A stretch of DNA of 64,000 nucleotides. Source: an uncultured Dehalococcoidia bacterium (GTDB lineage: Bacteria; Chloroflexota; Dehalococcoidia; Lucifugimonadales; UBA1127). The notes below the pieces were generated by a model. That model saw nothing but the letters and a program-made list of their open reading frames with translations, made no database searches and was not told the origin of the DNA. The stretch lies in the NCBI GenBank assembly GCA_964625945.1, contig CAZVDP010000015.1:6703-70702 (forward strand). The letters run 5' to 3'. Of this stretch, positions 26,543 to 63,096 are shown in pieces (within the stretch, counting starts at the first letter, position 1; each line of letters begins with the position of its first letter). The position numbers were made by a program, and so were the translations under genes.

Positions 26543-27163
26543 TTACTTAGTACTCTCTGTAAGGACAATCGGGATCGTTACTAAGGTACCCTCACCACCA
26601 ATGAGTGTCAGGCTGTATACTCCAGCCGTGACCATATGTCCGCTAGTATTCAGAGTGATGGTGGTCGAAACCACACCATCCATATCTGCATTTACGCCTT
26701 CACCTGCGAATCCTCTCGGATTTGCGCCAGCGATCTGCGGCAACACATACTCTTTCCGCTGAAACCCTGAACCATAAACGCTGATTGACTCGTCTTCTCC
26801 TAGTACGTAAGCCGCCTTGTCAGTAGCGGCGCCAGCGCCCACGATCGCCGTCCCGGCCTCACCTTGAGGTCCAGCAGGTCCTGCCGGCCCAATGGGTCCC
26901 TGATCTCCCTGAGCACCAACCAACTGACCTACGACAGGCTGGATGATCGAAACCACCGCTGCCTTAATTTGGTCATCGGTCGGAGCAGGCCCTGGATCTC
27001 CTTGCCAGCCCTGGGCCCCCTGCGGACCTTGGGCTCCCTGCGAGCCTTGCACACCCTGAAGACCAGGCTCACCTGCACATGCAGAAGCCAGAGTCAAAAT
27101 CACCGTTAGTGCCACCACGAAGGGGAGGAAACGTATTCGCTTCACCCAAGAAGTTTTCATCAT
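26543..27163 (-). CDS. Collagen-like (G-X-Y repeat) lipoprotein, paralog B
   Basis: Start ATGATG after AAGGGGGA, and lipobox LASAC. It has two G-X-Y blocks (GEPGLQGVQGSQGAQGPQGAQGWQGDPGP and GAQGDQGPIGPAGPAGPQGEAG) and a C-terminal domain of about 100 aa. Confidence 0.8.
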   Translation of the reverse strand: MMKTSWVKRIRFLPFVVALTVILTLASACAGEPGLQGVQGSQGAQGPQGAQGWQGDPGPAPTDDQIKAAVVSIIQPVVGQLVGAQGDQGPIGPAGPAGPQGEAGTAIVGAGAATDKAAYVLGEDESISVYGSGFQRKEYVLPQIAGANPRGFAGEGVNADMDGVVSTTITLNTSGHMVTAGVYSLTLIGGEGTLVTIPIVLTESTK

Positions 27164-27212
27164 ATCCCCCTTATATCGGCTCAATAGGCCGTGTTTATGT
27201 CCTTAAGATGTC

Positions 27213-27821
27213 TTATTCAGAGATGACTATTGGAATAGTGACGTAGGTCCCTTCGCCACCGTTAACCTGCAGGCTGTATACTCCAGCCTTGACCATATGT
27301 CCGCTAGTATTCAGAGTGATGGTGGTCGAAAACACACCATCGATATCAGCATTTCCGCCCGCAGCTGCGAATCCTCTCGGATTTGCGCCAGCTATTTGCG
27401 GGAGCACGAACTCGTTTCGAGCAAAGCCCGATCCGTAGACCGTGATAGTGGTATCAGTGCCTAGCGCATAGGAGCGCTGGTCCAGCAGAATACCGGCCGG
27501 AGATTGACGGAAGTCTACGCCCGCCGGGCCTTGTGCTCCAACCGGGCCATCAGGACCCTGAAATCCTGCACCGCCCTTTAGTTGCGGGATCATTTTGGTC
27601 GCCATGGGCTGTAGTGCCTTCATAACGTCGCTTGACGTCGGTAGCGGCCCCGGGGCTCCTTGATCACCTACCCAGCCCTGAGCTCCCTGGGGGCCTTGGT
27701 CACCGACCGGCCCTTGCAATCCAGGAAGTCCTGGACTTCCACAACCTACCGCGAGAATTACACTAAGCAATGTACTTATTAGGAGGAGACGCATAGCCTT
27801 CGCTCCAGGGGAGACAATCAT
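27213..27821 (-). CDS. Collagen-like (G-X-Y repeat) lipoprotein, paralog C
   Basis: Lipobox LAVGC. It has G-X-Y blocks GSPGLPGLQGPVGDQGPQGAQGWVGDQGAPGP and GFQGPDGPVGAQGPAG, and a C-terminal domain near-identical in part to paralog B. An alternative start is at 27794. Confidence 0.8.
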   Translation of the reverse strand: MIVSPGAKAMRLLLISTLLSVILAVGCGSPGLPGLQGPVGDQGPQGAQGWVGDQGAPGPLPTSSDVMKALQPMATKMIPQLKGGAGFQGPDGPVGAQGPAGVDFRQSPAGILLDQRSYALGTDTTITVYGSGFARNEFVLPQIAGANPRGFAAAGGNADIDGVFSTTITLNTSGHMVKAGVYSLQVNGGEGTYVTIPIVISE

Positions 27822-36996: not shown

Positions 36997-37602
36997 ATGG
37001 ATTTATTTGACGCTATCCGTAGCCAGAGAGCTATTCGCCGTTATACCGACGACCCTGTACCCATGGATTTGATCCACCGCATTCTTGAATTCGCAGTCAG
37101 AGCGCCAAGTGGGGGCAATCAGCAACCCTGGAGCTTCATCGTGATTACAAATCCATCATTAAAAGCGCGCATCTCTGTTTTCTACCGCCGTTCTTGGGAT
37201 GAAGTTTATGGCCCACCGGAACGTGCCGCTACGCTGTCCCAACAAGTTCTTAGTTCCGCCTCAGGCTTAGCAGAAAATATGGCTGAGGCTCCTGTACTGA
37301 TCATGGCATGCATCAAACACGACGGGTCACCCAGTAGCCTAGGTAGAGGGGCTTCTATCTATCCAGCAGTACAAAACTTGATGCTAGCCGCCAGAGGTTT
37401 GGGATTAGGAACAGCCCTAACCACGCTCCACAAGAGATACGAGGCAGAGATCAAGAACTTGCTTGATATACCTGATAATGTAGAAACGGCAGCCCTAATA
37501 CCTGTTGGGTACCCTGCCAGCCCAGAACATTTTGGAGGGAGTCGGCGGCGGCCCGTCCTTGAACTCACATATCTCGAGCAATGGGGAAAGCCGGCCGCTT
37601 AA
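36997..37602 (+). CDS. Nitroreductase-family protein
   Basis: RSQRAIRRYTDDPVP and APSGGNQQPW, typical of FMN nitroreductases. Confidence 0.8.
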   Translation: MDLFDAIRSQRAIRRYTDDPVPMDLIHRILEFAVRAPSGGNQQPWSFIVITNPSLKARISVFYRRSWDEVYGPPERAATLSQQVLSSASGLAENMAEAPVLIMACIKHDGSPSSLGRGASIYPAVQNLMLAARGLGLGTALTTLHKRYEAEIKNLLDIPDNVETAALIPVGYPASPEHFGGSRRRPVLELTYLEQWGKPAA

Positions 37603-37611
37603 CTATCCCCA

Positions 37612-40600
37612 CTATACAGTAAGACGTTTGTAAAGCTCAGGCAATCTTTGGGGAAGTGAACTTATATCGGCGAGCACTTCATAGCCCATATCGCCGCACA
37701 TAGCCTTTAAATAGTCATGCCCCGTACGGTCCACTGTGAGACAGAATGGAGTAATATCTTTACGCTTAGCCTCTACTAAAGCTTGATGCGTATCATGGAC
37801 CGCATACTCCTTTTCAACACCTTCTCGACTATATCCTCGATCTTGGGGCCGCCCATCACTGATAAGAAATAGAACCTTGGTTTTTGCACTAACCCTATCC
37901 AGCAATGTGGTAGCATGACGAATGGCTGGACCCATTCGAGTCGCATGCAACGGGGAAACCCGATCAATCCTGCGACGCACCGGATCGTTCAAGTATTCGT
38001 CTAGACCTTTAATTACATAGAATTCGACGTTCTCGCGGCCGTAGCCTGAGAAACCATATATACCGTACTGATCACCCAATGTTTCCAACGCTTGGATCAG
38101 CAGCACAATGCTTTCTTTTTCCAAATCGATGATCCTCTTATACGACCTTCGTGTTACCTCGCCACGCCTAGTCCGTAACCAAAGCATGTATTCGACAGGA
38201 TCATTGGGTGCATTCCAGTCATCACGACGACTTTCCTCGATAGCTTCTGCCGTAGAAGCACTCATATCAAGGAGGAATAAGACAGCTACATCACGTTCAA
38301 CTTTATTACGACGCCAATACACTTTGTCCGAAGCGTATCCACCAGCCCTAAGATCGATCATCGAGTCAACAACAGCATCAAGATCAAAGTCTTCCCCATC
38401 TGCCAATGGTCTGACCTTGCGAAAGTTCTCCGGAACAACTCGCTCAAACTGTCGACGGATCTGCGTCACCAATGAAGCGTTGTCCTGCAAAGTCTGGTTC
38501 CAAAAAGTCACTTCTCCTTGAACAACTTGCTTCTCTCTCACCAAACACCAACTGGGTTTGTAATCATCGGCGCGGAAATCCCATTCATCGTATAGGTAAG
38601 CATTAGCCTCAGCACGCTGGAGTGGCCCTCCATCTTCATCCATGTGAACAAAGGAACCCTGACCTGTTGAGGAACTCTGAGGGGGCATTTTCAAGCCAAC
38701 ACTACGCATAAGATTGGCTGCGAGCTCGCTGTTTTGCAGAGTCTCGCCCTGCGCTGTTTCCAATTCGGCATTATCCTCAAGGACTTGCTCTAGCAATGAC
38801 TGAGTCGTGGCAGAATCTTGCTCATCCCCTCGATCTTGCGATTCTTTAAGCTTATTAATCAATTGGACAAGCTCTGGTTTAAAATCGCCCCGGTAATCAA
38901 CTTGCTGAGGCGAATCATATGATTCTTGTTCTGCATCCCCCGATTGGGGTTCTTCACCAGCAACTAATTGCGGCGTAAGGCTGTCCAAGTAGCTATCATA
39001 GGCCTCGTCTTCTTCGGCTTCCTCATTTTCGTCCTCAGAAGCGTCAAAATCTTGCCATTCATCGTTTTGAAGTTCTTCATTAGGTATTTGTGACAGGACA
39101 GCATACAAACGAAGTGTGGCTTCACCCACGTCCTCAACAGTAGCAAGTGGCGCCTGGATTAAACGTAGAATCCGTAGTATGGCCCTGGATTCAGGGTCAC
39201 GGCCATGCGGTATCACAAGATCGGACTCCTGGCCCAAACTAAGGCGTACCATAACCTCGACCAATGCCTCTCTTGCGGGTAGGTCTTGAATTGATGGACG
39301 TCCAGGAAGGGAATCCCGTTGGACTCGCCGATAGTGTGGTCGAAGACCGGCGTATTCGGTTAGCACACGCGCATCTAGTCGTGCATCTTCTAGAATCGTA
39401 AAAATGTCTAAAGCCAATTTCCGATCGGGGAAAAGAGCAAAGAACCGGTGCATGTCAGTTTCCCATGGGGATTCTACATCCAAGCCACCCGTAGAGGGGG
39501 CAGGGTCGAGATGAGATAATCGAGGTCGCAAATCGCGGAAATGGACCGACGGGCGCTCGAATTCAAAATCAAAACTACCATACTCCAGATGGCCAATTTG
39601 ATGGGTGGCGATTACTTTGATCAGCCCAAAGTTCTCGATCTTGGATTTATAGCGACCCTCGATTTCAGGCAGGTACACTGTAGCTCCTTCGGTAGTTGGG
39701 CGTTCCGCTTCAACCCAACCGATTCCACGTTGCACCAAGTCCTTTGTAGGGGCAATTTCAATTTGACTACCAACAAGGGCTCGGCAATAGAGCTTTATCA
39801 ATTCCTTGACACGACCAAGTTCTACCACGGCCGAAAGAGAATCGACTAATTCCTGAGATTTTGCTGATTCAAGACGGAAATACGCCATGCCGCCTTCTTT
39901 ATTGGACGCGAGTAACTGAACCCCATAGTCAAACCACACGTTCAACTCCTGGTCACTAATGCGGCCTAGGATTGCCGGGCTATTCCGTACGAAATCGAGA
40001 ACGGCGGGAGGGTGCAATTGTATTAAGTCTTCAGCGAGACCGAACACTACCTGCTGAACACGGGGACTAAGCTGAGCGAAACCAGTCGAGCTCTCCAACA
40101 AGAATTTCGGGATGCCACGTTCTCCAGATTTGCTAAGCCGCTCTGCCATTATCAAAAACCGGGCGCGCTCGCTCTCTCTAAGCTTTGGCAGTCCACTGTT
40201 AGCTGCTTCTAAACAACCTTTGGAATCCCTCCAGCTAATGTCCACAATTGTGGTCAACAGCGAGATCAAGAGCCCTTTTTCATCTCCTAATCTAGCGAAA
40301 GCATCCTTGCCCAGAGACAAACATTCTTGTGCAAGATCATTCGAGCGACTGGACAACGCTTCAAGAAACCCAGCAAATCGCTCAAGCTCGGCGTAGGTTA
40401 TGTAATTCAAAACTTCTGGCGTGATCTCGAAGAACTTGCAAGCTAAAGATGTAGATTTCCATGTCCCCTTATAGAAACTTTGGCCAAGTTTGCCCCACAA
40501 AATGATCTCATGCTGACGTACACCTAAAACCGATGAGCTCGAGCGTAAATACGCCACTGCAACCGAGGGTGATCGTTGACTAATGACGTGACCTAACTCG

Positions 40601-40854
40601 CCCCATTCTAGTAACGTGGGTACTGAATAGTTATCAAGAATCGTGGGACTCGACTGGAAATACTCTATTGCAACTTCCCAAGCTCGGGCTCCCTGTTCGG
40701 CAACAGCTAGCCCACAGGCCGCCCATTGTTCAAGCTCATCAGGCGTCATTTTCAACCGGAGATGATCAATCGCTGCACGATATTCTTGACTAAGCGACAC
40801 AGGAAACACAGCTAGCCTAGTTTCAATTTGGCCGAGGCGAGGGTCGTGGTTCAT
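37612..40854 (-). CDS. 1080-aa NorD/CbbO-like protein with a C-terminal von Willebrand factor A domain
   Basis: C-terminal VWA with the MIDAS motif DMSAS (nt 38254-38268), then GFSG...ATRMG...LISDGRPQD. It has an N-terminal helical region of about 590 aa and an acidic linker of about 120 aa (nt 38725-39081). Its start overlaps the Nudix stop. Confidence 0.8.
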   Translation of the reverse strand: MNHDPRLGQIETRLAVFPVSLSQEYRAAIDHLRLKMTPDELEQWAACGLAVAEQGARAWEVAIEYFQSSPTILDNYSVPTLLEWGELGHVISQRSPSVAVAYLRSSSSVLGVRQHEIILWGKLGQSFYKGTWKSTSLACKFFEITPEVLNYITYAELERFAGFLEALSSRSNDLAQECLSLGKDAFARLGDEKGLLISLLTTIVDISWRDSKGCLEAANSGLPKLRESERARFLIMAERLSKSGERGIPKFLLESSTGFAQLSPRVQQVVFGLAEDLIQLHPPAVLDFVRNSPAILGRISDQELNVWFDYGVQLLASNKEGGMAYFRLESAKSQELVDSLSAVVELGRVKELIKLYCRALVGSQIEIAPTKDLVQRGIGWVEAERPTTEGATVYLPEIEGRYKSKIENFGLIKVIATHQIGHLEYGSFDFEFERPSVHFRDLRPRLSHLDPAPSTGGLDVESPWETDMHRFFALFPDRKLALDIFTILEDARLDARVLTEYAGLRPHYRRVQRDSLPGRPSIQDLPAREALVEVMVRLSLGQESDLVIPHGRDPESRAILRILRLIQAPLATVEDVGEATLRLYAVLSQIPNEELQNDEWQDFDASEDENEEAEEDEAYDSYLDSLTPQLVAGEEPQSGDAEQESYDSPQQVDYRGDFKPELVQLINKLKESQDRGDEQDSATTQSLLEQVLEDNAELETAQGETLQNSELAANLMRSVGLKMPPQSSSTGQGSFVHMDEDGGPLQRAEANAYLYDEWDFRADDYKPSWCLVREKQVVQGEVTFWNQTLQDNASLVTQIRRQFERVVPENFRKVRPLADGEDFDLDAVVDSMIDLRAGGYASDKVYWRRNKVERDVAVLFLLDMSASTAEAIEESRRDDWNAPNDPVEYMLWLRTRRGEVTRRSYKRIIDLEKESIVLLIQALETLGDQYGIYGFSGYGRENVEFYVIKGLDEYLNDPVRRRIDRVSPLHATRMGPAIRHATTLLDRVSAKTKVLFLISDGRPQDRGYSREGVEKEYAVHDTHQALVEAKRKDITPFCLTVDRTGHDYLKAMCGDMGYEVLADISSLPQRLPELYKRLTV

Positions 40855-41456
40855 AATAACGCTCCCTCCGGTAACCGTTCCGCAACCATACGCATGAACC
40901 TGCCAAGGATTCTGGCTGTCGCTCCATGAATAACACGCCCACCATATACGAATGAATACCTCTTCCGCAATGATCCGTCTTCCAAAACAGCCTCTTGACG
41001 GAACCCTCCTTCAGAACGGAACGCTGATAGAGGAACCTCGATGACCTCAGAGACCTCATCGGAATTAATCTGAAATCTGTAACAGGAAGGAATGTAGCCC
41101 ACAACCGGCCATATCTGGAAACCGGAATTCGTCGATACTGGGTGCAGTTGCCCAACGATCTTAACGTCGTCAGGAATGATCCCGAGCTCTTCGAAGGCTT
41201 CTCTCAATGCGGTCCTTTGAATGTCGATATCAGACGGTTCTTTCACTCCCCCCGGGAAACACATCTCATCTTTATGCTGTGCGACCCGCAAACTTCTCCG
41301 GGTTAAAACGACTGAAAGCCCGCTACTCTCATACGAAATTGGAAGGAGAACCCCTGCCTGAACTACCTCTTTGTCAGGATACGCCAAATCAGGGACATAC
41401 GGCCAAGGGAGGCTGCGTAAGATTCCGAGTGGGCTGAAGGTGATCGGACCCTTCAT
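40851..41456 (-). CDS. Nudix hydrolase, CoA pyrophosphatase-like
   Basis: Nudix box ...[33 protein letters not shown]-x11-FPGG matches the spacing of the CoA-pyrophosphatase (NudL/NUDT7) signature. Confidence 0.75.
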
Positions 41457-42346
41457 TCAAAGATCGATGCGACAACTTCCTCGATACTATTCTGTACCTG
41501 GAGATCGTCGACTACAGCCCAGACAATCGCGGCACGACAAGCATCGCGAGCTGGGATTCCTCGCCTGATTAACTTACCCGCATAAATCAGGAGTCGCGTG
41601 CTCGCGCCCTCTTGCAATCCATGATCTTTAAGGTGGCGGACTTTCGCTCCTAACTTCGCAAGTTGTGAAGCGATTCCAATATCTACTCCAGCTTCATGAG
41701 CAACAATTTGTGCTTCAACTTCCTCTGGGGGATACTCGAAGTCAATTGCTACGAATCGTTGACGCGTAGATTGCTTTAAATCCTTAATGGCACTTTGGTA
41801 ACCCGGATTATATGAAATCACCAGAAGGAAGCCTTCATGTGCTTCAATTAAGGTGCCTCGTTTTTCTACTGGCAAAATCCTCCGATGATCCGTAAGAGGG
41901 TGAATAAGTACTGTAGTATCTTTCCTAGCCTCTACAACTTCATCAAGATAACAAATTCCTCCAGATTTAACCGCAAGACTTAAAGGGCCATCCACCCATC
42001 GAGTGCCGTCTGCGTCGATTAGGTAACGACCTACCAAGTCGCTACCAGTAAGATCTTCATGGCATGCGACAGTGATCAGCGGAATAGACTGCTGGTCCTT
42101 TTTGCGATTACCGCGCTTTCGTCCCTGTGCATGACTTAATCGATATGCCATGTATTCAACGAATCGCGTTTTCCCACACCCTGTAGGGCCCTTAAGAATA
42201 ACGGGGATTCGTTCAGCATAAGCGGCCTCGAAAAGTTCAATCTCATCGCCTTGCGGTAGATAGTAAGGCTCTGCATCAACTAAATATTCTTCAATCCGCA
42301 GCTCGTTGTGATACAGTACGGACCGCTTTTCTTTCAGCATGATCAA
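41453..42346 (-). CDS. MoxR-class AAA+ ATPase of the CbbQ/NirQ/NorQ type
   Basis: Walker [11 protein letters not shown], Walker B CYLDEV, and an N-terminal PYYLPQGDE segment typical of CbbQ/NorQ. 297 aa. Confidence 0.85.
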
Positions 42347-42948
42347 CCTTTCCTAGACAGAATTCGTTCGTCCCAGATTTCTCCAGCTCGACTGCACAGA
42401 TCTTTAAGGCTCCCACAATTTTCAATGACGGCGGTAGCATGAATCACTTTGTCAGCATCAGATAACTGTGACCGTACTCGAGATATCGCATCGTCGTATG
42501 CCAATTGATTCCTAGCCATCAGGCGTGACACTACGTCCTTTTCAGGGGCCACAGTAACCCAGATTTCGTCTACAAGATCAGTCCAACCTGCTTCAATCAG
42601 TAAGGCGGCCTCCAGAATGATAATATCGTCTCCTTCCGCCTCACGTCTCGCGATTTCAGTTGTTGCCAGCTCAAAGAGCGTCGGGAACATTATTCTATTG
42701 AGCTTATCAAGGGCAGCAGGATCACTGAATACGATTGCTCCAAGCACCTGACGGTTAATCTTCCCCCCGGGAGAGAGGATGCGCTTCCCAAAGGCCTCCA
42801 CTACCTGACGCCACGTTACGGTATGCGGTCGATAGGCTTGATGGCCTAACTCATCCACACTGATCCACGCCGCCCCGAGACCTGCGAGGACTCTCGCTAC
42901 CTCACTCTTACCGGTTCCTATGCCGCCTGTGAGACCGATGACAACCAT
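42343..42948 (-). CDS. coaE: Dephospho-CoA kinase
   Basis: [13 protein letters not shown]-loop. I prefer the ATG at 42948 after AGGAGA; the ORF can extend to a GTG at 42978. Confidence 0.9.
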
Positions 42949-43044
42949 CCGTCTCCTGTCACGTTTTCTACTCCTCACCTAGCATCTTAACTCTACGCTG
43001 CGAATCTTAGCTGGTCAAGATTTGTCGGATTTAATGTTCGCGTC

Positions 43045-43695
43045 TCATGTCGACCAAACAATCCCCATAACCAACGCGCTACCTAAAGGAACCGTAAAGT
43101 TATCGTTAATCGGCACAGGAAGCCCTTCAATCAGAGTTGCAATCCCAGCACCTAATATGACAATCCAAAACGACGTAACTAGGCCTTGTGACCAAAACAG
43201 AATTCCCACTAGCAACGATGCGCCCAAAAAAGCTGCACTGCCTTCTAAGGTCTTTACTTTTAAATTCCTAAACAACGCTATAGGCAGTCGTACTCTACCT
43301 ATGGTGGACCCAACCACCCCGGCCGCGGGATCGCCTAACGCTACGAAAAAGAGTGCTAAACAAGATATTGGTAATGGGAAGAGGTTTACCACTATCGCAG
43401 AGGACACTGCAAGATAGCTGGCTCCGGTAATTGCTCCAGTAACTTCGTCAGCACGCAGAATCCTCCGAAATATTACTAAGAACAAATTCCGAAAACAATG
43501 AGAGGTCTTCCGGAAAAATTCCACGCACACTAGCAACCCTGCGATAGCGATACTGGCTATTTGAACTACATCTATTGGTGCGATCAGCGCAGCGACCGGG
43601 AGGATCGAACCGCCCCCCGCATGAACCACGCTTCTCCCCAGTTGTATGGAACTATAATCCCGCAATGCCTGGACCTGACCTCCACCAAACGCCAT
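43045..43695 (-). CDS. Polyprenol/phytol/dolichol kinase-family membrane protein (COG0170, CTP-dependent)
   Basis: Multi-TM protein with GDPAAGVVG, KTLEGSAAF and DNFTVP motifs. Confidence 0.6.
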   Translation of the reverse strand: MAFGGGQVQALRDYSSIQLGRSVVHAGGGSILPVAALIAPIDVVQIASIAIAGLLVCVEFFRKTSHCFRNLFLVIFRRILRADEVTGAITGASYLAVSSAIVVNLFPLPISCLALFFVALGDPAAGVVGSTIGRVRLPIALFRNLKVKTLEGSAAFLGASLLVGILFWSQGLVTSFWIVILGAGIATLIEGLPVPINDNFTVPLGSALVMGIVWST

Positions 43696-44314: not shown

Positions 44315-44408
44315 GGGAGTGAATAGGGCCCGGTGGCCCTTGCGGTCTTCAACACCGTCGTGTCCGCGATGAGCGGACAGGTGGGTTCGACTCCCTCTCA
44401 CTCCCGCC
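44315..44408 (+). tRNA. selC: tRNA-Sec (selenocysteine, anticodon UCA)
   Basis: 8-bp acceptor stem (GGGAGTGA/TCACTCCC), 6-bp D-stem with 4-nt loop (AGGGCC-CGGT-GGCCCT), and anticodon loop CT-TCA-AC. It also has a 7-bp variable arm (TGTCCGC-GATGA-GCGGACA), T-loop TTCGACT and discriminator G. Confidence 0.85.
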
Positions 44409-44508: not shown

Positions 44509-45090
44509 TCAAGGAGCCAATGTCTCCTTTAGCTTTTGACGCATACTCAAAGGGATCTCAACCTGTACGTTGTATCTCGGGTGATTAACAAATACGGTAA
44601 CAGGACTAGATAGGTTCTGAAACTCCTCCCGGACCCTTGGGGCAAGATAAAACCTCAAGTAATGCACGCTACTGGTGCGCCCATTAGAAGTCCGACCATC
44701 TTCCCCCAGCGCCGAAACCGTAAAGAAGTTGCCAACAGCAATCCCGACCGAATCTTCAATCCCGGCCAATTCTGACAAACGCGACTTTATCTGTTCCTGG
44801 TTGGTGATTTCGATAAATAAGGTCGCTACGAGCTCACCCTCGGCAGGAATTAAGCTGTTGTATGCGTCTAGTTCGTCTTGTATTCTCTCGGGATCTGTAA
44901 TCCGCTCTGCACGAAGCATCTCTTGGATTTGATACCAAACGGTACGACGGTTCTCAAAAGCCAACGACAAAATCGACCCTAGAGACAACCGAAGGGTTCG
45001 TCGCAGTAATATTAGTTCGTTCTGAATCTCAGGGCGACAAGCTTCGTATTCATCGAGCCCGATCAGCTCTGTAATAGTCACTACCCCCAA
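44509..45090 (-). CDS. DUF3501-family protein
   Basis: TTG start after GAGGAG. Has FENRRTVWYQIQEMLRAERI and AYNSLIP motifs as I recall them for DUF3501. Confidence 0.7.
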   Translation of the reverse strand: MGVVTITELIGLDEYEACRPEIQNELILLRRTLRLSLGSILSLAFENRRTVWYQIQEMLRAERITDPERIQDELDAYNSLIPAEGELVATLFIEITNQEQIKSRLSELAGIEDSVGIAVGNFFTVSALGEDGRTSNGRTSSVHYLRFYLAPRVREEFQNLSSPVTVFVNHPRYNVQVEIPLSMRQKLKETLAP

Positions 45091-45102: not shown

Positions 45103-46362
45103 TTAATCTATCCCGTAGGCACGATAAACGATTTCTATCGGATGTAATACTTCTTGCCCAGTCGCCTGAGTAATCTGAAGGGCGGCCAACGAGCAATCAG
45201 TCACAACTACGTCCGATTGCCCTTCATCAATTGCTTCGAACAGTCTCCGTCCAACTTTCATGCCGAGATCATAGTTTTTTGCTTTCATCCCCCATGTACC
45301 ATCGTGACCTGAGCACCCTCGATCGATCGCCTCCACCGTCGTCCCAGGAATTAACTCGAGAAGACGAGGTGTTAAGCTACCCATCTGTTGATATCGCAAG
45401 TGGCACGGCATATGGTATGCAATTGTTCCAGGATTCCAACGGAAATCTTCTATCAGATCCCCTTGTTTATGAAGCATTAGCAAATATTCGCTAATATCAT
45501 ATGTGTTCTCTGATACTAGCCTCGCATCATCGGTCCCTAAGAGCTTCGGATACTCCTTTTTCAGCATCATCCCACATGTCGGTTCCGGAACAACAATTAC
45601 GCTCCCGTCTCGCACCCATTCGACTAACGACGCAACATTCTTTTCCATAAGCCCTAAAGCGTGTTCCATCGCGCCCATATCAATGTAAGGCATCCCGCAA
45701 TCACTCTGGGTGGGCAATGTCACTTCAACTCCATTGTGTTCCAACACCTTCACCGCAGCGATCCCGATATCTGGCCTATTATGATTGACTAAGCATGTAT
45801 GAAAAAACGCGACTTTACCATTGTGACGAGGTCGACGTTTGTTGACCCGAACCGAAGCTCGTTTGCGAAACCATCGTGTGAAGGTCTGCCAATGGAAGCT
45901 TGGTAAAATCGCCCGGCGATCAAGCCCAATAAATTTTTCAAGGAGAAGACGAGTCGGGGGCAGCCGATTGAGAACATTTATAACTGGGGCAGCGAAACTA
46001 CCGAGAACGTTCACACGTTCGACATCGCCAATGAGACGATCCCTGAGGGGGATGCCATGAGTTTTCGCATTGACTGCCTTAGACCGCCGGAGGAGCCCGG
46101 GTATATCAATATCCCACTCGTGCGGAAAGGTGTAGGGACATTTCAGGTAGCACAACTCACATAAATAGCAAAGTTCAGTAACTTGACGAGCCTCAGCCAC
46201 AGAGATATCTTTGGCTTCGCCATCATGTCCATCAATGGCATCGAACATTGCGGGGAAAGAGGGGCAGAAGTTCAAGCACATACGGCACGAGCCGCAGATA
46301 TCAAACTGCCTTATCGTCTCTTGACGCAATGCCGTGCTGTCCCAGAATCCCACTGGCAGCAC
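45103..46362 (-). CDS. Fe-S oxidoreductase, heterodisulfide-reductase-related (2x[4Fe-4S] plus two CCG-like domains; GlpC/HdrD-like)
   Basis: CGSCRMCLNFCP and CYLCELCYLKCP ferredoxin motifs, with Cys-rich CCG-like repeats downstream. GTG start after AGGAGGG. Confidence 0.8.
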   Translation of the reverse strand: MLPVGFWDSTALRQETIRQFDICGSCRMCLNFCPSFPAMFDAIDGHDGEAKDISVAEARQVTELCYLCELCYLKCPYTFPHEWDIDIPGLLRRSKAVNAKTHGIPLRDRLIGDVERVNVLGSFAAPVINVLNRLPPTRLLLEKFIGLDRRAILPSFHWQTFTRWFRKRASVRVNKRRPRHNGKVAFFHTCLVNHNRPDIGIAAVKVLEHNGVEVTLPTQSDCGMPYIDMGAMEHALGLMEKNVASLVEWVRDGSVIVVPEPTCGMMLKKEYPKLLGTDDARLVSENTYDISEYLLMLHKQGDLIEDFRWNPGTIAYHMPCHLRYQQMGSLTPRLLELIPGTTVEAIDRGCSGHDGTWGMKAKNYDLGMKVGRRLFEAIDEGQSDVVVTDCSLAALQITQATGQEVLHPIEIVYRAYGID

Positions 46363-54479: not shown

Positions 54480-54571
54480 CGAAAAAAGGCTGTTCCCTGT
54501 CAGTTGACGATGCTCTTGAACCCCTGAGATACTTGTCTTAGAAGCAATTGTTTGGGATGACGAGGCTAATA

Positions 54572-55732
54572 ATGTCCGTTAAAAAGGTCGCGATTGTAGG
54601 CGTAGGAGAGTCTGACCAAATGGGTCACATACCTAGCAAATCGCCACTCCAACACCATTCTGAAGCAGCGTATAACGCATTGGCAGACGCCGGAATCAAA
54701 AAATCCGAAGTCGACGGTCTGTTCACAGCAGGTTATTCAACTTTACTCACCGCAGAGTACATGGGTATTGTTCCCCGATACACAGACTCTACCTCCATTG
54801 GAGGATCATCATTTATAGCGCACGTGGGGCATGCCGTCGCAGCAATACAAGCAGGTTACTGCAACGTAGCTTTAATTACTCACGGACAAAGCGGATATTC
54901 TAGAAGGGGTCAAGGGGGCCAACCCGATCTGACTCTTCCCAAATCCCAATATGAAGCTCCATATGGCCTGATAGGAAACGTGATTGATTACGCTTTAGCC
55001 TGCTCACGTTATATGTACGAATTCGGAGAAGAGCGGACTCGGCAGGGGATGGCAGAAATCGCAGTAGCAACTAGAAAATGGGCACAATTGAATCCGAAAG
55101 CCTTTATGCAAGACCCCATGACTTTTGAAGACTATCACTCGTCAAGGTGGATCGCGTGGCCTTTCCACTTACTTGATTGTTGTCTTGTAACCGACGCGGG
55201 TGGTGCTGTTGTTATAACCTCTAATGACAAAGTTGCTTCATGCCGTAAATCACCCGTTTGGATCCTAGGAACCGCGGAATCCCACGAGCATTCAATGATA
55301 AGTCAGATGCCATCCCTTACATCAACGATAGCTCGCCAAACAGGCCCGACCGCATTGATGCGAGCCGGAGTCACGCACGATGATATCGATTTGGCAATGA
55401 TCTATGACTCATTTACCTACACTGTGCTGGCAAGTCTAGAAGCTTTAGGGTTTTGTGGACAAGGAGAAGGTCCAGATTTCGTTGCAAATCAACGAACTGC
55501 TCCAGGAGGCACCTTCCCGATGAATACCAATGGCGGAGGTCTTTCATACACTCACTCTGGGATGTACGGGATTTTCCTCCTTATCGAAGCAGTCAGACAG
55601 CTGAGAGGAGAAGCAGGGTCCCGGCAAGTTTACAGTCCCAAAAACACCCAGAATCCAGCAAGACTTACACTGGTGAACGGAACAGGAGGATCGCTTTCTT
55701 CAACTGCCACGACGATCCTCGCATCGGATTAA
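54572..55732 (+). CDS. Thiolase-like protein (SCP-x/non-specific lipid-transfer-type thiolase)
   Basis: VAIVGVGES N-terminus, a thiolase fold, and the C-terminal NTNGGGLS motif. Followed by its usual DUF35 partner. Confidence 0.8.
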   Translation: MSVKKVAIVGVGESDQMGHIPSKSPLQHHSEAAYNALADAGIKKSEVDGLFTAGYSTLLTAEYMGIVPRYTDSTSIGGSSFIAHVGHAVAAIQAGYCNVALITHGQSGYSRRGQGGQPDLTLPKSQYEAPYGLIGNVIDYALACSRYMYEFGEERTRQGMAEIAVATRKWAQLNPKAFMQDPMTFEDYHSSRWIAWPFHLLDCCLVTDAGGAVVITSNDKVASCRKSPVWILGTAESHEHSMISQMPSLTSTIARQTGPTALMRAGVTHDDIDLAMIYDSFTYTVLASLEALGFCGQGEGPDFVANQRTAPGGTFPMNTNGGGLSYTHSGMYGIFLLIEAVRQLRGEAGSRQVYSPKNTQNPARLTLVNGTGGSLSSTATTILASD

Positions 55733-60150: not shown

Positions 60151-61305
60151 TTAGCCACCCATCTTTCCGAGAACATGACGCGCAATGACCATCCTCTGCA
60201 CCTCCGAGGTTCCCTCGTAAATCTCAGTAACCTTCGCATCCCTATAAAGACGCTCGACCAAGGTAGGTTTGAAATATCCGATCCCTCCATGAATCTGAAC
60301 CGCTTCATTCGTACAATAAGTCGCTGATGCCGAAGCATAGAATTTTGCCATGCACGCTTCCTTGATAAAGGGTAAACCTGCGTCTCTCAACATAGCTGCA
60401 TTGCGAACCATCAGCCGTGATGCCTCCACTCGAGTAGCCATCTCAGCAAGCTTGAATTGAATTCCCTGATGATCACTAATGGGTACTCCAAATGACTTTC
60501 GCTGCTTAGAATACTGAATAGCGGCTTCAAGCGCAGCCTGCGCGAAACCTACCGCCTGAGCAGCAATCGTGATGCGGCTGGAATCCAACGTCAGCATAGC
60601 AATCTTGAATCCTTCTCCTTCAACTCCCATGAGATTCTCCTGAGGAACCGGGACATCCTGGAGAAAAACCTGAGCGGTGTCGGACGCCCGCATGCCCATC
60701 TTTGTTCCTAGAGATTGGGCTTCGAGCCCCCCAAACTCTCTCTCCACGATGAACGCCGTAATGCCTCGGGATCTCTTCTCAGGGTCCATGGTCGCGTAGA
60801 CAACAAACGTATCAGCAAAATCCCCATTCGTGATCCAAGTCTTACTCCCATTAATCAAGTAAGAGCCATCAGTTTTTTTTGCCGACGTCTGTAGGGCTGC
60901 CGCATCGCTACCCATTCCAGGCTCGGACAGTCCAAATGCACCAATCTTCTCTCCTGATATAAGTTCAGGAAGATATTTCTTCTTCTGGGCGTCATTAGCA
61001 AATCCGTGAATGTTCTGTATCGCTAGAGACACATGGGCGATCCAAGTTAGGCTCGTAGCACCACAGCACCTAGTTAACTCTTCAGCTACGATTGCGAGCT
61101 CCCGCGCCCCTCCCCCAGTGCCCCCATACTCAGGATCGACTCCAACACCAAACAATCCCAAACCCCCCATCGCCTTCATTGCTTCCCAAGGGAATTCCTG
61201 GGTGGAATCCAGTTCATCGGCTTTAGGAGCTAGTTCTTGTTCGGAAAAATCTCGAACCATATTCTGCAGAAGTTTCTCTTCCTCAGTAAGAAACAGATCA
61301 CTCAC
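60151..61305 (-). CDS. Acyl-CoA dehydrogenase
   Basis: 384 aa with GLSEPGMGSDA, and the C-terminal QIHGGIGY...YEGTSEVQ motif. Confidence 0.9.
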   Translation of the reverse strand: MSDLFLTEEEKLLQNMVRDFSEQELAPKADELDSTQEFPWEAMKAMGGLGLFGVGVDPEYGGTGGGARELAIVAEELTRCCGATSLTWIAHVSLAIQNIHGFANDAQKKKYLPELISGEKIGAFGLSEPGMGSDAAALQTSAKKTDGSYLINGSKTWITNGDFADTFVVYATMDPEKRSRGITAFIVEREFGGLEAQSLGTKMGMRASDTAQVFLQDVPVPQENLMGVEGEGFKIAMLTLDSSRITIAAQAVGFAQAALEAAIQYSKQRKSFGVPISDHQGIQFKLAEMATRVEASRLMVRNAAMLRDAGLPFIKEACMAKFYASASATYCTNEAVQIHGGIGYFKPTLVERLYRDAKVTEIYEGTSEVQRMVIARHVLGKMGG

Positions 61306-61443
61306 TTCAGTCCTCCACCATAATTTTATGGGCCGACGCCTATGTTACCAGTAACGCCAAACCTAATTCCAACCGGAAAACTTCGCCATTAATCGATAAC
61401 AAGAAGCACCTATCTAAGTTTAAACCGATTGGGCACAAGCTTT

Positions 61444-63096
61444 CTACACGACATTTTGATGCTGATGCTCTCCAAACACAGATCGGAGTGTATCTGCGAT
61501 CTCTCCGGTGGTGCAATAAGCCTCCACACATAGCAAAATCGAAGGCACCGTGTTTTCATCAGATAAGGCCACAGATTTCAGCTCGTTCAGCGCGTTGAGA
61601 GCCTTCTGGGGATCTCGCTTCGCACGAACCTCCTGCACACGTTCAATCTGACGTCGAGTCTGATCGGGATCGATTCGAAGGATCCCCTTGATTGGCTCGT
61701 AATCAACGGCAAATCGATTAACTCCCACGACTGTCTTGTCCTTTGCCTCTACCAAGCGCTGATGTTTCAGCGCAGCTTCGGTAATCTCCGTTTGTTGATA
61801 TCCTCTTTCCAGCCCCGCTAGGGCTCCGCCCATTCGGTCCATCTGTGCAATATATTTGAAAGCCTGTTCTTCAAGCTCATTCGTGAGGTGCTCAACATAG
61901 TAGGATCCCCCAAGGGGGTCGACCACATCAGCTACGCCGCTTTCAAATGCTAGGACTTGCTGAGTCCTCAGTGATAGTCGTACAGATTCTTCAGTCGGTA
62001 GAGCTAGAGCTTCATCACGAGAATTCACATGCAGCGACTGCGTGCCACCTAGTATTGCTGCCAACGCCTGGACAGTACAACGCACCACGTTATTATCAGA
62101 CTGTTGGGCTGCCAGAGTAACTCCAGCCGTTTGAGTATGGAATCTCAACGTCCATGCCCGAGGATTTTGGGCTTTAAACCGATCCTTCATGATTTTGGCC
62201 CACATCCGACGCGCTGCTCGAAACTTGGCCACCTCTTCAAGAAGATTATTATGTGAAGCAAAGAAGAATGACAGCCGGGGACCGAACGAATCAACGTCCA
62301 AACCGACTGAAGTCGCCGATTCCACGTATTCGATCGCATCCGCAAAAGTGAACGCTAACTCTTGTGCGGCGGTGCAGCCAGCCTCGCGCATATGGTAACC
62401 ACTGATGCTGATAGTGTTCCATCGAGGCATGTGTTCAGCGCAATACTTGAGGACATCAACCACAAGACGCAGAGACGGTCTGGGCGGATAAATGTATGTG
62501 CCGCGCGCTATATATTCCTTAAGAATATCATTCTGAATCGTCCCAGATAGGTCTTTCTCTAAGATTCCCTGTTGCTTGGCAACAGCTACGTAAAGGCAAA
62601 GCAAGATCGAGGCCGTTGCGTTAATGGTCATGGACGTACTCACACTGTCCAGAGGAATCCCATCAAAAAGAATTTCCATATCTCTCAATGACGATATTGG
62701 GACTCCAACTTTTCCGACCTCACCGAGAGCCATCGGATGGTCAGAATCATAGCCCATTTGAGTGGGCAAATCGAAAGCAACTGACAAGCCAGTCTGGCCT
62801 TGCTCAAGCAGAAATCGGTAACGCCGATTTGACTCCTCAGCAGACGCGTAGCCCGAGTACTGCCGCATGGTCCAGAGACGCCCTCTGTACATGGTAGGCT
62901 GGACTCCTCGTGTGTACGGGAATTCCCCGGGAAAACTATGATCCTGTTTGGAATCTGGAATGTCTTCACTGGAATATAGGGGGTCTAATTCAATTCCAGA
63001 TTCTGTCTCGAATCGCTCCTGACGTTCGGGAGCACGTTCTATGGCCGGCGCCAATGTATTCGCAACCCATTCGTTTTTATTTTCCGACACAATCAC
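61444..63096 (-). CDS. Methylmalonyl-CoA mutase, catalytic (large) subunit
   Basis: [22 protein letters not shown] and [10 protein letters not shown] motifs. 550 aa with no B12 domain. Confidence 0.95.

What the first reader, a model, noticed from the sequence alone, without database searches (positions are those of the whole stretch)
37612..42978. Translationally coupled operon coaE / CbbQ-NorQ AAA+ / CoA-pyrophosphatase Nudix / 1080-aa VWA protein, with no recognisable client gene
Four consecutive minus-strand genes overlap by 4 nt each (42343-42346, 41453-41456, 40851-40854), which argues for one co-translated unit. The ATPase carries the CbbQ/NorQ-type Walker A ([10 protein letters not shown]). 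The 1080-aa partner ends in a VWA domain with an intact MIDAS motif (DMSAS). That is the architecture of the CbbQ/CbbO Rubisco activase and of the NorQ/NorD metallo-enzyme maturases. Neither RuBisCO, nor, cox nor any other usual client is within +/-20 kb here. Instead, a Nudix protein with CoA-pyrophosphatase-type spacing (VLTRRS-x11-FPGG) sits between the two partners, and the operon opens with dephospho-CoA kinase. Coupling the last step of CoA synthesis and a CoA-cleaving enzyme to a protein-remodelling AAA+/VWA pair is not a described arrangement as far as I know. It suggests remodelling or repair of a CoA-handling or CoA-inhibited enzyme.
Basis: partly seen in the sequence, partly recalled or inferred. 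Interest (0 to 1): 0.7.

Follow-up and report, generated by a model that had tools for sequence, protein, structure and literature searches.

The report
CoA-enzyme operon with orphan AAA+/VWA remodeller
A four-gene operon (CoA kinase, ring ATPase, CoA-type Nudix hydrolase, giant VWA adaptor) is real and conserved in over 100 Dehalococcoidia genomes, and it belongs to an uncharacterised branch of the Rubisco-activase / NO-reductase-maturase family whose target protein is still unknown.

Summary
Four tightly packed minus-strand genes encode CoaE, a CbbQ/NorQ-class AAA+ ATPase ("Q"), a NudL/NUDT7-like Nudix and a 1080-aa NorD/CbbO-like VWA protein with a complete MIDAS. No Rubisco, nor, cox or cobN gene lies within ±20 kb.

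The order coaE-Q-Nudix-VWA recurs in 106 distinct Dehalococcoidia/SAR202 loci, where VWA identity falls to about 45%. Flanking genes are not conserved.

The linkage is lineage-specific.
- Eleven loci of a sister clade carry a YfcE-family metallophosphoesterase in the Nudix slot. This clade includes the cultured Tepidiforma flava.
- About ten Chloroflexota loci have coaE-Q-VWA with nothing in the slot. One has a short-chain dehydrogenase there.
- In other phyla the same Q/VWA subfamily stands alone, with no conserved neighbour.

All Q proteins of this subfamily carry an 8-25-aa insertion that CbbQ and NorQ lack.

Best reading: this is a Q6:VWA1 "finger-in-pore" remodeller for a client encoded elsewhere, and in Chloroflexota it has acquired CoA-nucleotide enzymes. 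Functional coupling to CoA is plausible but unproven. The Nudix fails the strict NuCoA signature and the NCBIfam cut-off.

Verdict: a new variant of a known kind, of moderate to high interest.

The parts
42343..42978 (-). coaE, dephospho-CoA kinase. The likely true start is ATG at 42948 (201 aa); the GTG at 42978 is the longest ORF.
   Evidence: PF01121 149 bits and TIGR00152 130.5 bits against a cut-off of 65.6. An independent gene call gives 201 aa. An AGGAG lies 5 nt before the ATG.
42990..43018 (-). Sigma-70-like promoter match (TTGACC-17-TAGAGT) in the 66-nt gap upstream of coaE.
   Evidence: This is a consensus match only; fewer sites were found in the region than in shuffles, so the evidence is weak.
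41453..42346 (-). Q: a CbbQ/NorQ-class MoxR AAA+ ATPase. The likely start is ATG at 42340 (295 aa). Features: Walker [11 protein letters not shown], Walker B YLDEV, H2-insert motif [10 protein letters not shown], and a 16-aa insertion ([16 protein letters not shown]) that CbbQ and NorQ lack.
   Evidence: AAA_5 plus CbbQ_C. PDB hits 5c3c at 358 bits and 9qh4 at 299 bits. Motifs are invariant in 79 orthologues. The insertion is shown.
40851..41456 (-). NudL/NUDT7-like Nudix hydrolase. It overlaps both neighbours by ATGA.
   Evidence: NUDIX 45.7 bits. PRK10707 114.9 bits, below the cut-off of 134. PDB relatives are AtNUDT11, NUDT7 and DR1184, with E-values from 3e-18 to 1e-16. The Nudix-box residues R85, E86, E89, E90 and G92 are invariant or nearly so in 81 sequences.
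39775..40854 (-). VWA protein residues 1-360: an all-helical repeat domain. It is present in the long (~1000-1140 aa) members of the subfamily and absent from the ~730-aa members.
   Evidence: AF2 pLDDT is about 90. There is no Pfam hit. Only designed helical repeats appear in Foldseek, at low probability. Long and short forms are shown.
39025..39774 (-). VWA protein residues 361-610: an alpha/beta domain equivalent to the NorD/CobT N-terminal domain. It carries the invariant T417-H418-Q419-x-x-H422-x-E424 helix.
   Evidence: There is a weak HMMER match of residues 476-545 to NorD 131-199. A relative gives a weak CobT hit. Conservation is shown. No significant fold match was found.
38605..39024 (-). 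VWA protein residues 611-750: an acidic, disordered linker.
   Evidence: Low pLDDT. The sequence is rich in D and E. It corresponds to the NorD/CobT linker (PMC13036017; bioRxiv 10.64898/2026.07.21.739949).
38293..38604 (-). VWA protein residues 751-854: the conserved YDEWDF...WC beta-hairpin and the segment aligned to the NorD 'finger' (PdNorD 403-448, roughly residues 806-853 here).
   Evidence: Alignment to NorD. Finger residues are taken from PMC13036017. Y755, E757, W758, D759 and W769-C770 are invariant.
37612..38292 (-). VWA protein residues 855-1080: the VWA domain. It has MIDAS D863-x-S865-x-S867, T972 and D1000, a variable 30-aa loop after the MIDAS, and a conserved C-terminus.
   Evidence: PF00092. 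NorD alignment of 905-1078 at 87 bits. Foldseek hit 9qh6_G with E 8.5e-13 and TM 0.73. Invariant columns are listed.

Best explanation
This is a conserved Chloroflexota operon. A distinct, uncharacterised subfamily of the CbbQ/NorQ-CbbO/NorD machines is co-expressed with enzymes of CoA-nucleotide turnover.

Shown by homology: Q is a hexamer-forming MoxR AAA+ ATPase. The 1080-aa protein is its single-copy adaptor. It comprises an extra helical repeat domain, a NorD/CobT-like N-domain, an acidic linker, a finger and a MIDAS-bearing VWA domain.

Inferred from the NorQD, CbbQO and CobST structures: the VWA finger sits in the Q pore and the adaptor's C-terminus binds the ring. ATP hydrolysis twists or stretches the adaptor. 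The adaptor holds a client through its MIDAS and N-terminal domains, so that a buried site opens for metal or cofactor insertion, or for release of a tightly bound ligand. The client is encoded elsewhere in the genome.

Inferred from gene order only: in Chloroflexota the pair was placed behind coaE. It later took in a small nucleotide-diphosphate hydrolase between Q and VWA: a NudL-like Nudix in Dehalococcoidia/SAR202 and a YfcE-type metallophosphoesterase in the Tepidiformaceae clade. The hydrolase is proposed to destroy a CoA-like (ADP-containing) ligand handled during remodelling. CoaE would close the recycling loop: 4'-phosphopantetheine to dephospho-CoA to CoA. The hydrolase is an accessory, not a core part, because some members work without it.
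For: - Domains and motifs were confirmed.
- NorQD interaction features are present. These are the H2-insert motif GRxL[LI]xxxxT in Q ([10 protein letters not shown]), the finger-equivalent segment, a conserved C-terminus and a complete MIDAS (PMC13036017).
- The VWA fold matches NorD best.
- Of 153 distinct loci, 106 have coaE-Q-Nudix-VWA, 11 have coaE-Q-MPP-VWA, 10 have coaE-Q-VWA and 1 has an SDR in the slot.
- Junction gaps run from -4 to +8 nt, and no terminator-like site lies within the operon on its own strand.
- The MPP is a YfcE-family phosphodiesterase: Metallophos_2 at 89-98 bits and TIGR00040 at 62-65 bits against a cut-off of 56.
- The Nudix and MPP types each form one clade of the VWA tree, so two separate insertions of phosphohydrolases hit the same slot.
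- The nearest solved relatives of the Nudix are all CoA diphosphatases.
- All Q proteins of the subfamily share an insertion that CbbQ and NorQ lack.
- No client gene is found near the pair in any lineage.
Against: - Each linkage (coaE, Nudix, MPP) is a single evolutionary event followed by vertical inheritance. The 106 loci are therefore not 106 independent observations.
- About ten Chloroflexota loci and all non-Chloroflexota loci lack a middle gene, and one has an unrelated SDR there. The slot tolerates other contents, and the hydrolase is dispensable for Q/VWA.
- coaE is a housekeeping gene that sits in mixed operons in many bacteria (general knowledge).
- I could not test whether this coaE is the only copy in the genome.
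- The Nudix fails the strict NuCoA signature and the NCBIfam equivalog cut-off, so CoA is not established as its substrate.
- There is no experimental or structural evidence of contact between the Nudix and Q/VWA.
- No client has been identified.
Confidence: 0.45

Rival explanations
1. Operon hitch-hiking. Q/VWA is an ordinary metal-insertion or assembly chaperone for an unlinked enzyme and has nothing to do with CoA. coaE (essential) and a NudL-type Nudix (CoA turnover) simply share a constitutive transcript with it. The phylum-wide conservation reflects inheritance of a compact operon in streamlined genomes.
For: - The pair occurs without coaE or Nudix in Gammaproteobacteria, Betaproteobacteria, Binatia, Pirellulaceae, Desulfobacterales and other lineages.
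- About ten Chloroflexota loci have an empty slot and one has an SDR.
- Each linkage is one event.
- Neighbours of the operon are housekeeping genes: a RimI-like GNAT, cinA, selA, gmk and aroA.
Against: - The Nudix lies between the two partner genes rather than beside them, and overlaps both by ATGA.
- A second, unrelated phosphohydrolase (YfcE MPP) occupies exactly the same slot in a sister clade.
- Two CoA-related genes were recruited separately to the same pair.
- The order is retained down to about 45% VWA and about 35% Nudix identity, while all flanks are shuffled.
Confidence: 0.35
2. The Nudix (or CoaE) is itself the client or a regulated subunit. The VWA MIDAS would bind the hydrolase, and the ring would switch it on or off, giving ATP-gated control of CoA degradation.
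For: - The Nudix is translationally coupled between Q and VWA.
- There is no other client nearby.
- Precedent from general knowledge, mentioned in PMC5437159: the MoxR ATPase RavA modulates an enzyme, LdcI, and its ppGpp inhibition.
Against: - The pair exists without any Nudix or MPP in many lineages.
- The slot holder is replaced by a protein with an unrelated fold (MPP), which would need a different docking surface.
- The Nudix has ordinary NudL length and no extra domain.
Confidence: 0.08
3. It is a genuine CbbQO Rubisco activase or NorQD maturase, and its Rubisco or NOR genes lie outside the window.
For: - Q is 60-61% identical to CbbQ and 53-56% identical to NorQ.
- JGI auto-annotation names some orthologues 'NorD'.
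Against: - No nor, cbb or cox gene was found in 153 loci with 8-10 kb flanks, or in the 64-kb window.
- Q carries a subfamily-specific insertion that is absent from CbbQ and NorQ.
- The adaptor is 1080 aa with an extra 360-aa domain, and only its C-terminal third aligns to NorD.
- Canonical systems are adjacent to their clients (PMC5437159, PMC9976466).
Confidence: 0.05
4. It is a vWA-MoxR conflict or defence system with a Nudix effector.
For: vWA-MoxR ternary conflict systems exist in Chloroflexi, and some carry Nudix effector domains (PMC7159879).
Against: - There is no PADLOC hit of note.
- No VMAP or iSTAND third component is present.
- The ATPase is CbbQ/NorQ-class.
- The locus is vertically inherited, single-copy, in a housekeeping context, and shows no hypervariability.
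Confidence: 0.02

Closest known systems
NorQ/NorD (FeB insertion into cytochrome c NO reductase; PDB 9qh4-9qhg; PMC13036017, PMC9976466)
   Same: - Q has AAA_5 plus CbbQ_C and is 53-56% identical to NorQ.
- The H2-insert motif GRxL[LI]xxxxT is present.
- Adaptor residues 707-1078 align to NorD 309-643 (E 6e-39), covering the YxEWD hairpin, the finger segment, the MIDAS and the C-terminus.
- The VWA fold has TM 0.73 to 9qh6_G.
- The N-domain / acidic linker / VWA layout is shared.
   Different: - There are no norCB genes.
- The adaptor is 1080 aa against about 640 aa, with an extra 360-aa helical repeat domain.
- A 30-aa loop follows the MIDAS.
- Q has a 16-aa insertion after the Walker A helix.
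- A hydrolase gene sits between Q and the adaptor.
- coaE lies upstream.
CbbQ/CbbO Rubisco activase (PDB 5c3c, 6l1q; PMC5437159, PMC4660213)
   Same: - This is the best-scoring solved relative of Q (358 bits, 60-61% identity).
- The Q6:adaptor1 logic with a C-terminal VWA/MIDAS adaptor is shared.
- Some relatives of the adaptor are about 730 aa, which is CbbO-sized.
   Different: - No Rubisco gene was found in any of the 153 loci.
- The Q insertion is absent from CbbQ.
- I had no CbbO reference sequence, so the adaptors were not compared directly.
CobS/CobT motor-adaptor of aerobic cobaltochelatase (bioRxiv 10.64898/2026.07.21.739949)
   Same: - The architecture matches: MoxR-like ring, then an adaptor with an N-domain, a disordered linker of about 90 aa, a shaft and a VWA domain.
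- A relative of the adaptor (P0252) gives a weak CobT Pfam hit in the middle domain (E 0.015).
- The middle domain has the helix / three-strand / helix topology described for CobT_N.
   Different: - The window protein has no CobT or CobT_C Pfam hit.
- There is no CobN/ChlH-type third subunit nearby.
- Foldseek finds no significant match for the middle domain.
Rubisco activase plus inhibitor phosphatase (Rca/CbbX with CbbY or CA1Pase). This is a functional analogy from general knowledge; the references are listed in PMC5437159.
   Same: Concept only: a remodelling ATPase releases a tight-binding phosphorylated ligand, and a dedicated small hydrolase destroys it. Here a Nudix or an MPP is encoded inside the Q/VWA pair.
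   Different: No evidence exists that a ligand is released here. The hydrolase families, the ligand and the client are all different or unknown.
NudL (E. coli YeaB) / NUDT7 / DR1184 CoA pyrophosphatases
   Same: - These are the best hits in NCBIfam (PRK10707) and in the PDB.
- The S-x11-FPGG spacing and the variant Nudix box (G-x5-D-x8-RE.EE.G) are the same as in NudL.
   Different: - The family consensus LLNKRSExVEHHKGEISFPGG has Asn for the signature Thr and Glu for the signature Arg/Lys.
- The window copy also has Asp for the signature Gly.
- Scores of 107-123 bits are below the equivalog cut-off of 134.

Membership tests
CbbQ/NorQ-class (CGN) MoxR AAA+ ATPases | AAA_5 core plus CbbQ_C C-terminal domain | tested here: met
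   PF07728 at 96.4 bits and PF08406 at 100.7 bits.
CbbQ/NorQ-class (CGN) MoxR AAA+ ATPases | Intact Walker A and B motifs and the H2-insert motif GRxL[L/I]xxxxT that contacts the adaptor finger | tested here: met
   GPTGCGKT and YLDEV are invariant in 79 orthologues. [10 protein letters not shown] is in the sequence. The motif definition is from PMC13036017.
CbbQ/NorQ-class (CGN) MoxR AAA+ ATPases | Hexameric ring with ATPase activity modulated by a VWA partner | not testable with these tools
   This needs biochemistry or cryo-EM.
CbbQO Rubisco activase | Encoded next to Rubisco (cbbLS/cbbM) or carboxysome genes | tested here: not met
   No Rubisco gene was found in the window within ±20 kb or in 153 related loci.
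CbbQO Rubisco activase | Q sequence of CbbQ type (no insertion between the Walker A helix and beta2) | tested here: not met
   A 16-aa insertion is present here and in the whole subfamily. It is absent from 5c3c and 6l1q.
NorQD NO-reductase maturase | Encoded in a norCBQD or denitrification cluster | tested here: not met
   No heme-copper oxidase or nor gene was found in any locus examined.
NorQD NO-reductase maturase | Adaptor with an N-domain, a linker, a finger and a VWA domain with MIDAS DxSxS-T-D and a C-terminus that docks on the ring | tested here: met
   Alignment to 9qhd_G and 9qh6_G. The MIDAS is invariant. Foldseek TM is 0.73. The layout is shared, but with an extra 360-aa N-terminal domain.
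CoA pyrophosphatase Nudix (NudL/NUDT7; NuCoA signature LLTxR[SA]x3[RK]x3Gx3FPGG, from general knowledge of PROSITE PS01293) | Nudix-box catalytic residues | tested here: met
   R85, E86, E89 and E90 are invariant and G92 is nearly so (79 of 81) in 81 sequences.
CoA pyrophosphatase Nudix (NudL/NUDT7; NuCoA signature LLTxR[SA]x3[RK]x3Gx3FPGG, from general knowledge of PROSITE PS01293) | Full NuCoA signature upstream of the Nudix box | tested here: not met
   The spacing and LxxxRS...FPGG are kept. However, Thr is Asn in 75 of 81 sequences and [RK] is Glu in 76 of 81 (Ala in the window). The signature Gly is kept in 80 of 81 but is Asp in the window.
CoA pyrophosphatase Nudix (NudL/NUDT7; NuCoA signature LLTxR[SA]x3[RK]x3Gx3FPGG, from general knowledge of PROSITE PS01293) | Score above the NCBIfam PRK10707 equivalog cut-off (134 bits) | tested here: not met
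   114.9 bits for the window copy, and 122.7 and 107.3 bits for two orthologues. It is still the only or best family hit.
CoA pyrophosphatase Nudix (NudL/NUDT7; NuCoA signature LLTxR[SA]x3[RK]x3Gx3FPGG, from general knowledge of PROSITE PS01293) | Hydrolysis of CoA or acyl-CoA to 3',5'-ADP plus 4'-phosphopantetheine | not testable with these tools
   This needs an enzyme assay.
Dephospho-CoA kinase CoaE | TIGR00152/PF01121 above the cut-off, with the P-loop GxxGxGKS | tested here: met
   130.5 bits against 65.6, and 149 bits. The sequence reads [11 protein letters not shown].
Dephospho-CoA kinase CoaE | Sole (housekeeping) copy in the genome | not tested
   Whole genomes cannot be fetched with these tools.
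CobST cobaltochelatase motor | CobT/CobT_C Pfam domains and a CobN partner | tested here: not met
   The window protein has no CobT hit. No CobN was found in any locus.
vWA-MoxR ternary conflict systems / known defence systems | A VMAP, iSTAND or effector third component, or a PADLOC model hit | tested here: not met
   PADLOC gave no meaningful hit. The architecture differs from that in PMC7159879.

The most novel reading that the evidence does not exclude
This would be an 'activase plus clean-up hydrolase' module for a CoA-dependent enzyme. The Q6:VWA1 machine pries open an abundant CoA-handling client of Dehalococcoidia/SAR202. A tightly bound, dead-end CoA-type nucleotide is released, for example an oxidised, dephospho- or mis-acylated CoA. 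The co-translated Nudix (or the YfcE phosphodiesterase in Tepidiformaceae) cleaves it, and CoaE helps rebuild CoA from the salvaged phosphopantetheine. It would be the first non-Rubisco enzyme-repair system of the CbbQO type with a dedicated inhibitor hydrolase.
Probability: 0.18. Interest if true: 0.85.

Novelty: new variant of a known kind. Interest (0 to 1): 0.6.

Why it matters
MoxR AAA+/VWA pairs are widespread, but only a few have a known client: Rubisco, cNOR, Mo-Cu CODH and the chelatases.

This finding defines a separate subfamily that lacks a linked client. It is marked by an insertion in Q and a long adaptor, and it occurs in several phyla. In Chloroflexota, including the very abundant marine SAR202, it is welded to CoA-nucleotide enzymes. 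Two different phosphohydrolase folds have been inserted between the partner genes.

That gives a concrete, testable lead to a new client class and to a possible enzyme-repair or cofactor-handling pathway. It also points to a cultured organism, Tepidiforma flava, in which to test it. If the linkage turns out to be mere operon hitch-hiking, the result is still useful as a caution for guilt-by-association annotation, since some orthologues are currently auto-named 'NorD'.

Tried and rejected
- **Client by neighbourhood.** I clustered all ORFs of 80 plus 84 related loci. Only coaE, Q, Nudix/MPP and VWA are conserved. Other recurrent neighbours are housekeeping genes, and none recurs around the pair outside Chloroflexota. 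They are a RimI-like GNAT about 200 nt upstream, a convergent cinA, selA, ABC/GldG-like genes and a PHP-like protein.
- **Contexts outside Chloroflexota.** The gammaproteobacterial locus has thiolase-like, SDR, hydrolase and TPP-enzyme genes. The L084 locus has an ABC transporter, topo VI, CorA and NDH-2. Nothing is shared.
- **Domain identity of adaptor residues 1-640.** Pfam at E up to 1 gave nothing. Foldseek with the whole model hit only VWA domains. A separate AF2 model of residues 345-625 (pTM 0.76) gave no hit with E below 1.
- **HQxxH as a metal site.** Only 'HQ' is conserved across the superfamily, and the second His is specific to Chloroflexota. I do not claim a metal site.
- **Defence system.** PADLOC was negative.
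- **Literature.** Six full-text searches found no description of a coaE or Nudix linkage to CbbQ/NorQ-type pairs.
- **Methylmalonyl-CoA mutase and acyl-CoA dehydrogenase as candidate clients.** They lie 17-18 kb away but are not linked in other loci, so I rejected them as evidence.
- **Promoter and terminator scan.** It gave only a weak promoter-like site before coaE.

Full report
**Observation.** They are the VWA protein at 37612-40854 (1080 aa), the Nudix at 40851-41456 (201 aa), the AAA+ ATPase at 41453-42346 and coaE at 42343-42978. Pfam and NCBIfam confirm every assignment.
- CoaE: PF01121 149 bits; TIGR00152 130.5 bits against a cut-off of 65.6.
- ATPase: AAA_5 96 bits plus CbbQ_C 101 bits.
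- Nudix: NUDIX 46 bits; its best NCBIfam hit is PRK10707 'CoA pyrophosphatase' at 114.9 bits, below the cut-off of 134.
- VWA: 28 bits against a cut-off of 23.8.

The Q/Nudix and Nudix/VWA junctions are ATGA overlaps. At coaE/Q the 4-nt overlap depends on a TTG start. An ATG six bases downstream (42340), preceded by AGGAAAGG, is more likely and is what an independent gene call used. That leaves a 2-nt spacer. coaE most likely starts at ATG 42948. A weak promoter-like match lies in the 66-nt gap upstream of coaE, and there is no terminator-like site inside the operon on its own strand.

Pfam scans of 39 ORFs of at least 150 aa between 17 and 63 kb returned only housekeeping functions. Examples are aroA, gmk, tyrA, ndk, tsaBE, thiG/E, speE, fumarase and an MFS transporter. 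No Rubisco, heme-copper oxidase/NOR, CODH, CobN or gas-vesicle gene is present.

**What the proteins are.** Q is very close to solved CbbQ (5c3c, 358 bits; 6l1q, 342 bits) and somewhat less close to NorQ (9qh4, 299 bits; 9qhd, 288 bits). Identity is about 61% to CbbQ and 53-56% to NorQ. The Walker A and B motifs are invariant in 79 orthologues. The H2-insert motif GRxL[L/I]xxxxT contacts the adaptor finger in the NorQD cryo-EM structures (PMC13036017). It is present here as [10 protein letters not shown].

Residues 707-1078 of the 1080-aa protein align to NorD residues 309-643 (E 6e-39). A weak extra match links residues 476-545 to the NorD N-domain. An AF2 model (pLDDT 76) shows five regions:
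- residues 1-360, a confident helical repeat;
- residues 360-610, an alpha/beta domain;
- residues 610-750, a disordered acidic linker;
- a conserved YDEWDF...WC hairpin followed by the segment that aligns to the NorD finger;
- a VWA domain whose best structural matches are the NorD VWA chains (Foldseek E 8.5e-13, TM 0.73).

MIDAS residues D863, S865, S867, T972 and D1000 are invariant. The layout of N-domain, linker, shaft and VWA is also that of CobT (bioRxiv 10.64898/2026.07.21.739949). The N-terminal 360 aa are extra.

The best solved relatives of the Nudix are all CoA diphosphatases: AtNUDT11, NUDT7 and D. radiodurans DR1184, with E-values from 3e-18 to 1e-16. Its catalytic Nudix-box residues are invariant or nearly so. 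The orthologue consensus LLNKRSExVEHHKGEISFPGG departs from the NuCoA signature at two defined positions, and the window copy at three. Orthologues also score below the equivalog cut-off. I therefore call it 'NudL-like', with CoA-type substrates likely but not established.

**Conservation.** The adaptor has hundreds of full-length homologues, all from Dehalococcoidia, SAR202 or Chloroflexota MAGs. In 80 species-representative loci fetched with 10-kb flanks, coaE, Q, Nudix and VWA occur in the same order and strand in 78. The other two loci are cut by contig ends. Adaptor identity to the window protein runs from 45% to 69%. Junction gaps cluster between -4 and +8 nt. Beyond the four genes, synteny decays. 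A RimI-like GNAT lies about 200 nt upstream in 61 loci and a convergent cinA lies downstream in 71, followed by selA and ABC/GldG-like genes.

A second set of 84 loci was anchored on distant relatives. It changes the picture. After removal of duplicates, 153 distinct loci fall into these classes:
- coaE-Q-Nudix-VWA: 106 loci;
- coaE-Q-MPP-VWA: 11 loci;
- coaE-Q-VWA with no middle gene: 10 loci;
- an SDR in the slot: 1 locus;
- bare Q-VWA: 13 loci;
- the remaining 12 loci either are cut by contig ends or have no Q upstream.

The MPP is a YfcE-family metallophosphoesterase (Metallophos_2 at 89-98 bits; TIGR00040 at 62-65 bits against a cut-off of 56). It is found, among others, in the cultured Tepidiforma flava YIM 72310 (NZ_CP115149.1). 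Most of the bare Q-VWA loci come from other phyla, according to their record titles: Gammaproteobacteria, Betaproteobacteria, deltaproteobacteria, Desulfobacterales, Binatia and Pirellulaceae.

In an NJ tree of the adaptors, the non-Chloroflexota pairs are outermost. The MPP type and the Nudix type each form one block, and the loci with an empty slot lie between them. So coaE linkage, Nudix insertion and MPP insertion are each single events that were then retained. Around the non-Chloroflexota pairs nothing is conserved except Q and VWA.

All Q proteins of this subfamily, in every phylum, have an 8-25-aa insertion between the Walker A helix and beta2. CbbQ and NorQ lack it. Adaptors come in a long form of about 1000-1140 aa and a form of about 730 aa without the helical repeat domain.

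**Interpretation.** The core is secure. This is a Q6:adaptor1 machine of the NorQD/CbbQO/CobST kind, and it belongs to a distinct subfamily with no linked client. By analogy with the structures, the adaptor's finger occupies the ring pore and its C-terminus docks on the ring. ATP hydrolysis twists or stretches the adaptor. The adaptor grips a client through the MIDAS and N-terminal domains, so that a site opens for metal or cofactor insertion or for ligand release (PMC13036017, PMC9976466, PMC5437159).

The relation to CoA is inferred only from gene order. Three points argue for a real functional tie:
- the hydrolase lies between the two partner genes and is translationally coupled to both;
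- two unrelated phosphohydrolase folds were inserted independently into the same slot, and these folds are classic analogues for nucleotide-pyrophosphatase chemistry (general knowledge: Nudix against ApaH, ADPRibase-Mn and LpxH);
- two CoA-related genes (coaE, and later a NudL-like Nudix) were recruited separately.

Four points argue against it:
- each linkage is one event plus inheritance;
- the slot can be empty or hold an SDR;
- the pair works without these genes in other phyla;
- coaE is a housekeeping gene, and I could not determine its copy number.

I put the coupled model at about 0.45, plain operon hitch-hiking at about 0.35, hydrolase-as-client at about 0.08, a canonical CbbQO or NorQD with a distant client at about 0.05, and a conflict system at about 0.02. 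PADLOC was negative, and the architecture is unlike the vWA-MoxR ternary systems of PMC7159879.

**Novelty.** Six full-text literature searches found no description of this arrangement. It is best filed as a new variant of a known kind. The machine type is known. The subfamily, its long adaptor, the embedded Nudix or MPP and the coaE linkage are not. Its interpretation is partly supported: the conservation test is passed within Dehalococcoidia, but the linkage is lineage-specific and the CoA-repair idea is untested.

**What led nowhere.** Pfam and Foldseek give no identity for adaptor residues 1-640, including a dedicated AF2 model of residues 345-625. The invariant T-H-Q-x-x-H-x-E helix looks like a degenerate zincin motif, and CobT_N is reported to be M48C-like. 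However, the second His is lost outside Chloroflexota and no fold match is significant, so I make no claim. Methylmalonyl-CoA mutase and an acyl-CoA dehydrogenase lie 17-18 kb away, but they are not linked to the operon elsewhere.

Noticed in passing
window 44315-44408 (+); L077:3064-4446, L100:3180-4601: A tRNA-Sec gene lies 1.3 kb upstream of coaE. In many related loci selA lies a few kb upstream of the same operon (42 loci of set 1, 16 of set 2). A CCG-domain protein (45103-46362), DUF3501 (44509-45090) and a rubrerythrin sit next to the tRNA-Sec.
   Followed up: partly
window 41453-42346 (Q residues ~69-88); all Q genes in L001-L164: Every Q ATPase of this subfamily, in Chloroflexota and in the pairs of other phyla that have no linked client, has an 8-25-aa insertion between 'VEYMAYRL' and 'PLITVAC'. 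Solved CbbQ and NorQ lack it, so it is a usable subfamily marker.
   Followed up: yes
L104:6497-7108 (Tepidiforma flava NZ_CP115149.1) and 10 other loci: A YfcE-family metallophosphoesterase occupies the exact slot between Q and VWA that the Nudix holds in Dehalococcoidia. In T. flava a His_Phos_1 phosphatase gene follows the VWA gene on the same strand.
   Followed up: yes
window 41268-41270 (Nudix residue 63): The window's Nudix has Asp where 80 of 81 orthologues have the NuCoA-motif Gly. This could be a real substitution or a sequencing or assembly error.
   Followed up: no
L104:5600-6487: T. flava Q reads GPTGAGKT. The Walker A Cys that forms the inhibitory disulfide in NorQ (PMC13036017) is Ala there, whereas the window keeps Cys57 and Cys95.
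   Followed up: no
window 39580-39603 (VWA residues 417-424): An invariant T-H-Q-x-x-H-x-E lies on the helix after a three-stranded sheet. This is reminiscent of a degenerate zincin HExxH, and CobT_N is reported to be M48C-like. The second His is lost outside Chloroflexota, and no significant fold match was found.
   Followed up: partly
window 60151-63096 (-) and 54548-55732 (+): Methylmalonyl-CoA mutase, an acyl-CoA dehydrogenase and a thiolase-like protein lie 12-20 kb from the operon. They are CoA-handling enzymes but are not linked to the operon in other loci.
   Followed up: partly
window 26543-27184 and 27213-27821 (-): Two adjacent ORFs of about 200 aa have collagen triple-helix repeat matches.
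   Followed up: no
window 43045-43695 (-): A 216-aa ORF with no Pfam or NCBIfam hit lies directly upstream of coaE on the same strand, and its sequence looks like that of a membrane protein. It is conserved only in the two closest loci and weakly in a few others.
   Followed up: partly
L089, L122, L114: VWA-adaptor homologues with no Q ATPase gene within 8 kb upstream, so the pair can be split in some genomes.
   Followed up: no
window 36997-37602 (+): A BluB/nitroreductase-family gene ends 9 nt from the VWA stop, in convergent orientation. It is conserved only in the two closest loci.
   Followed up: partly
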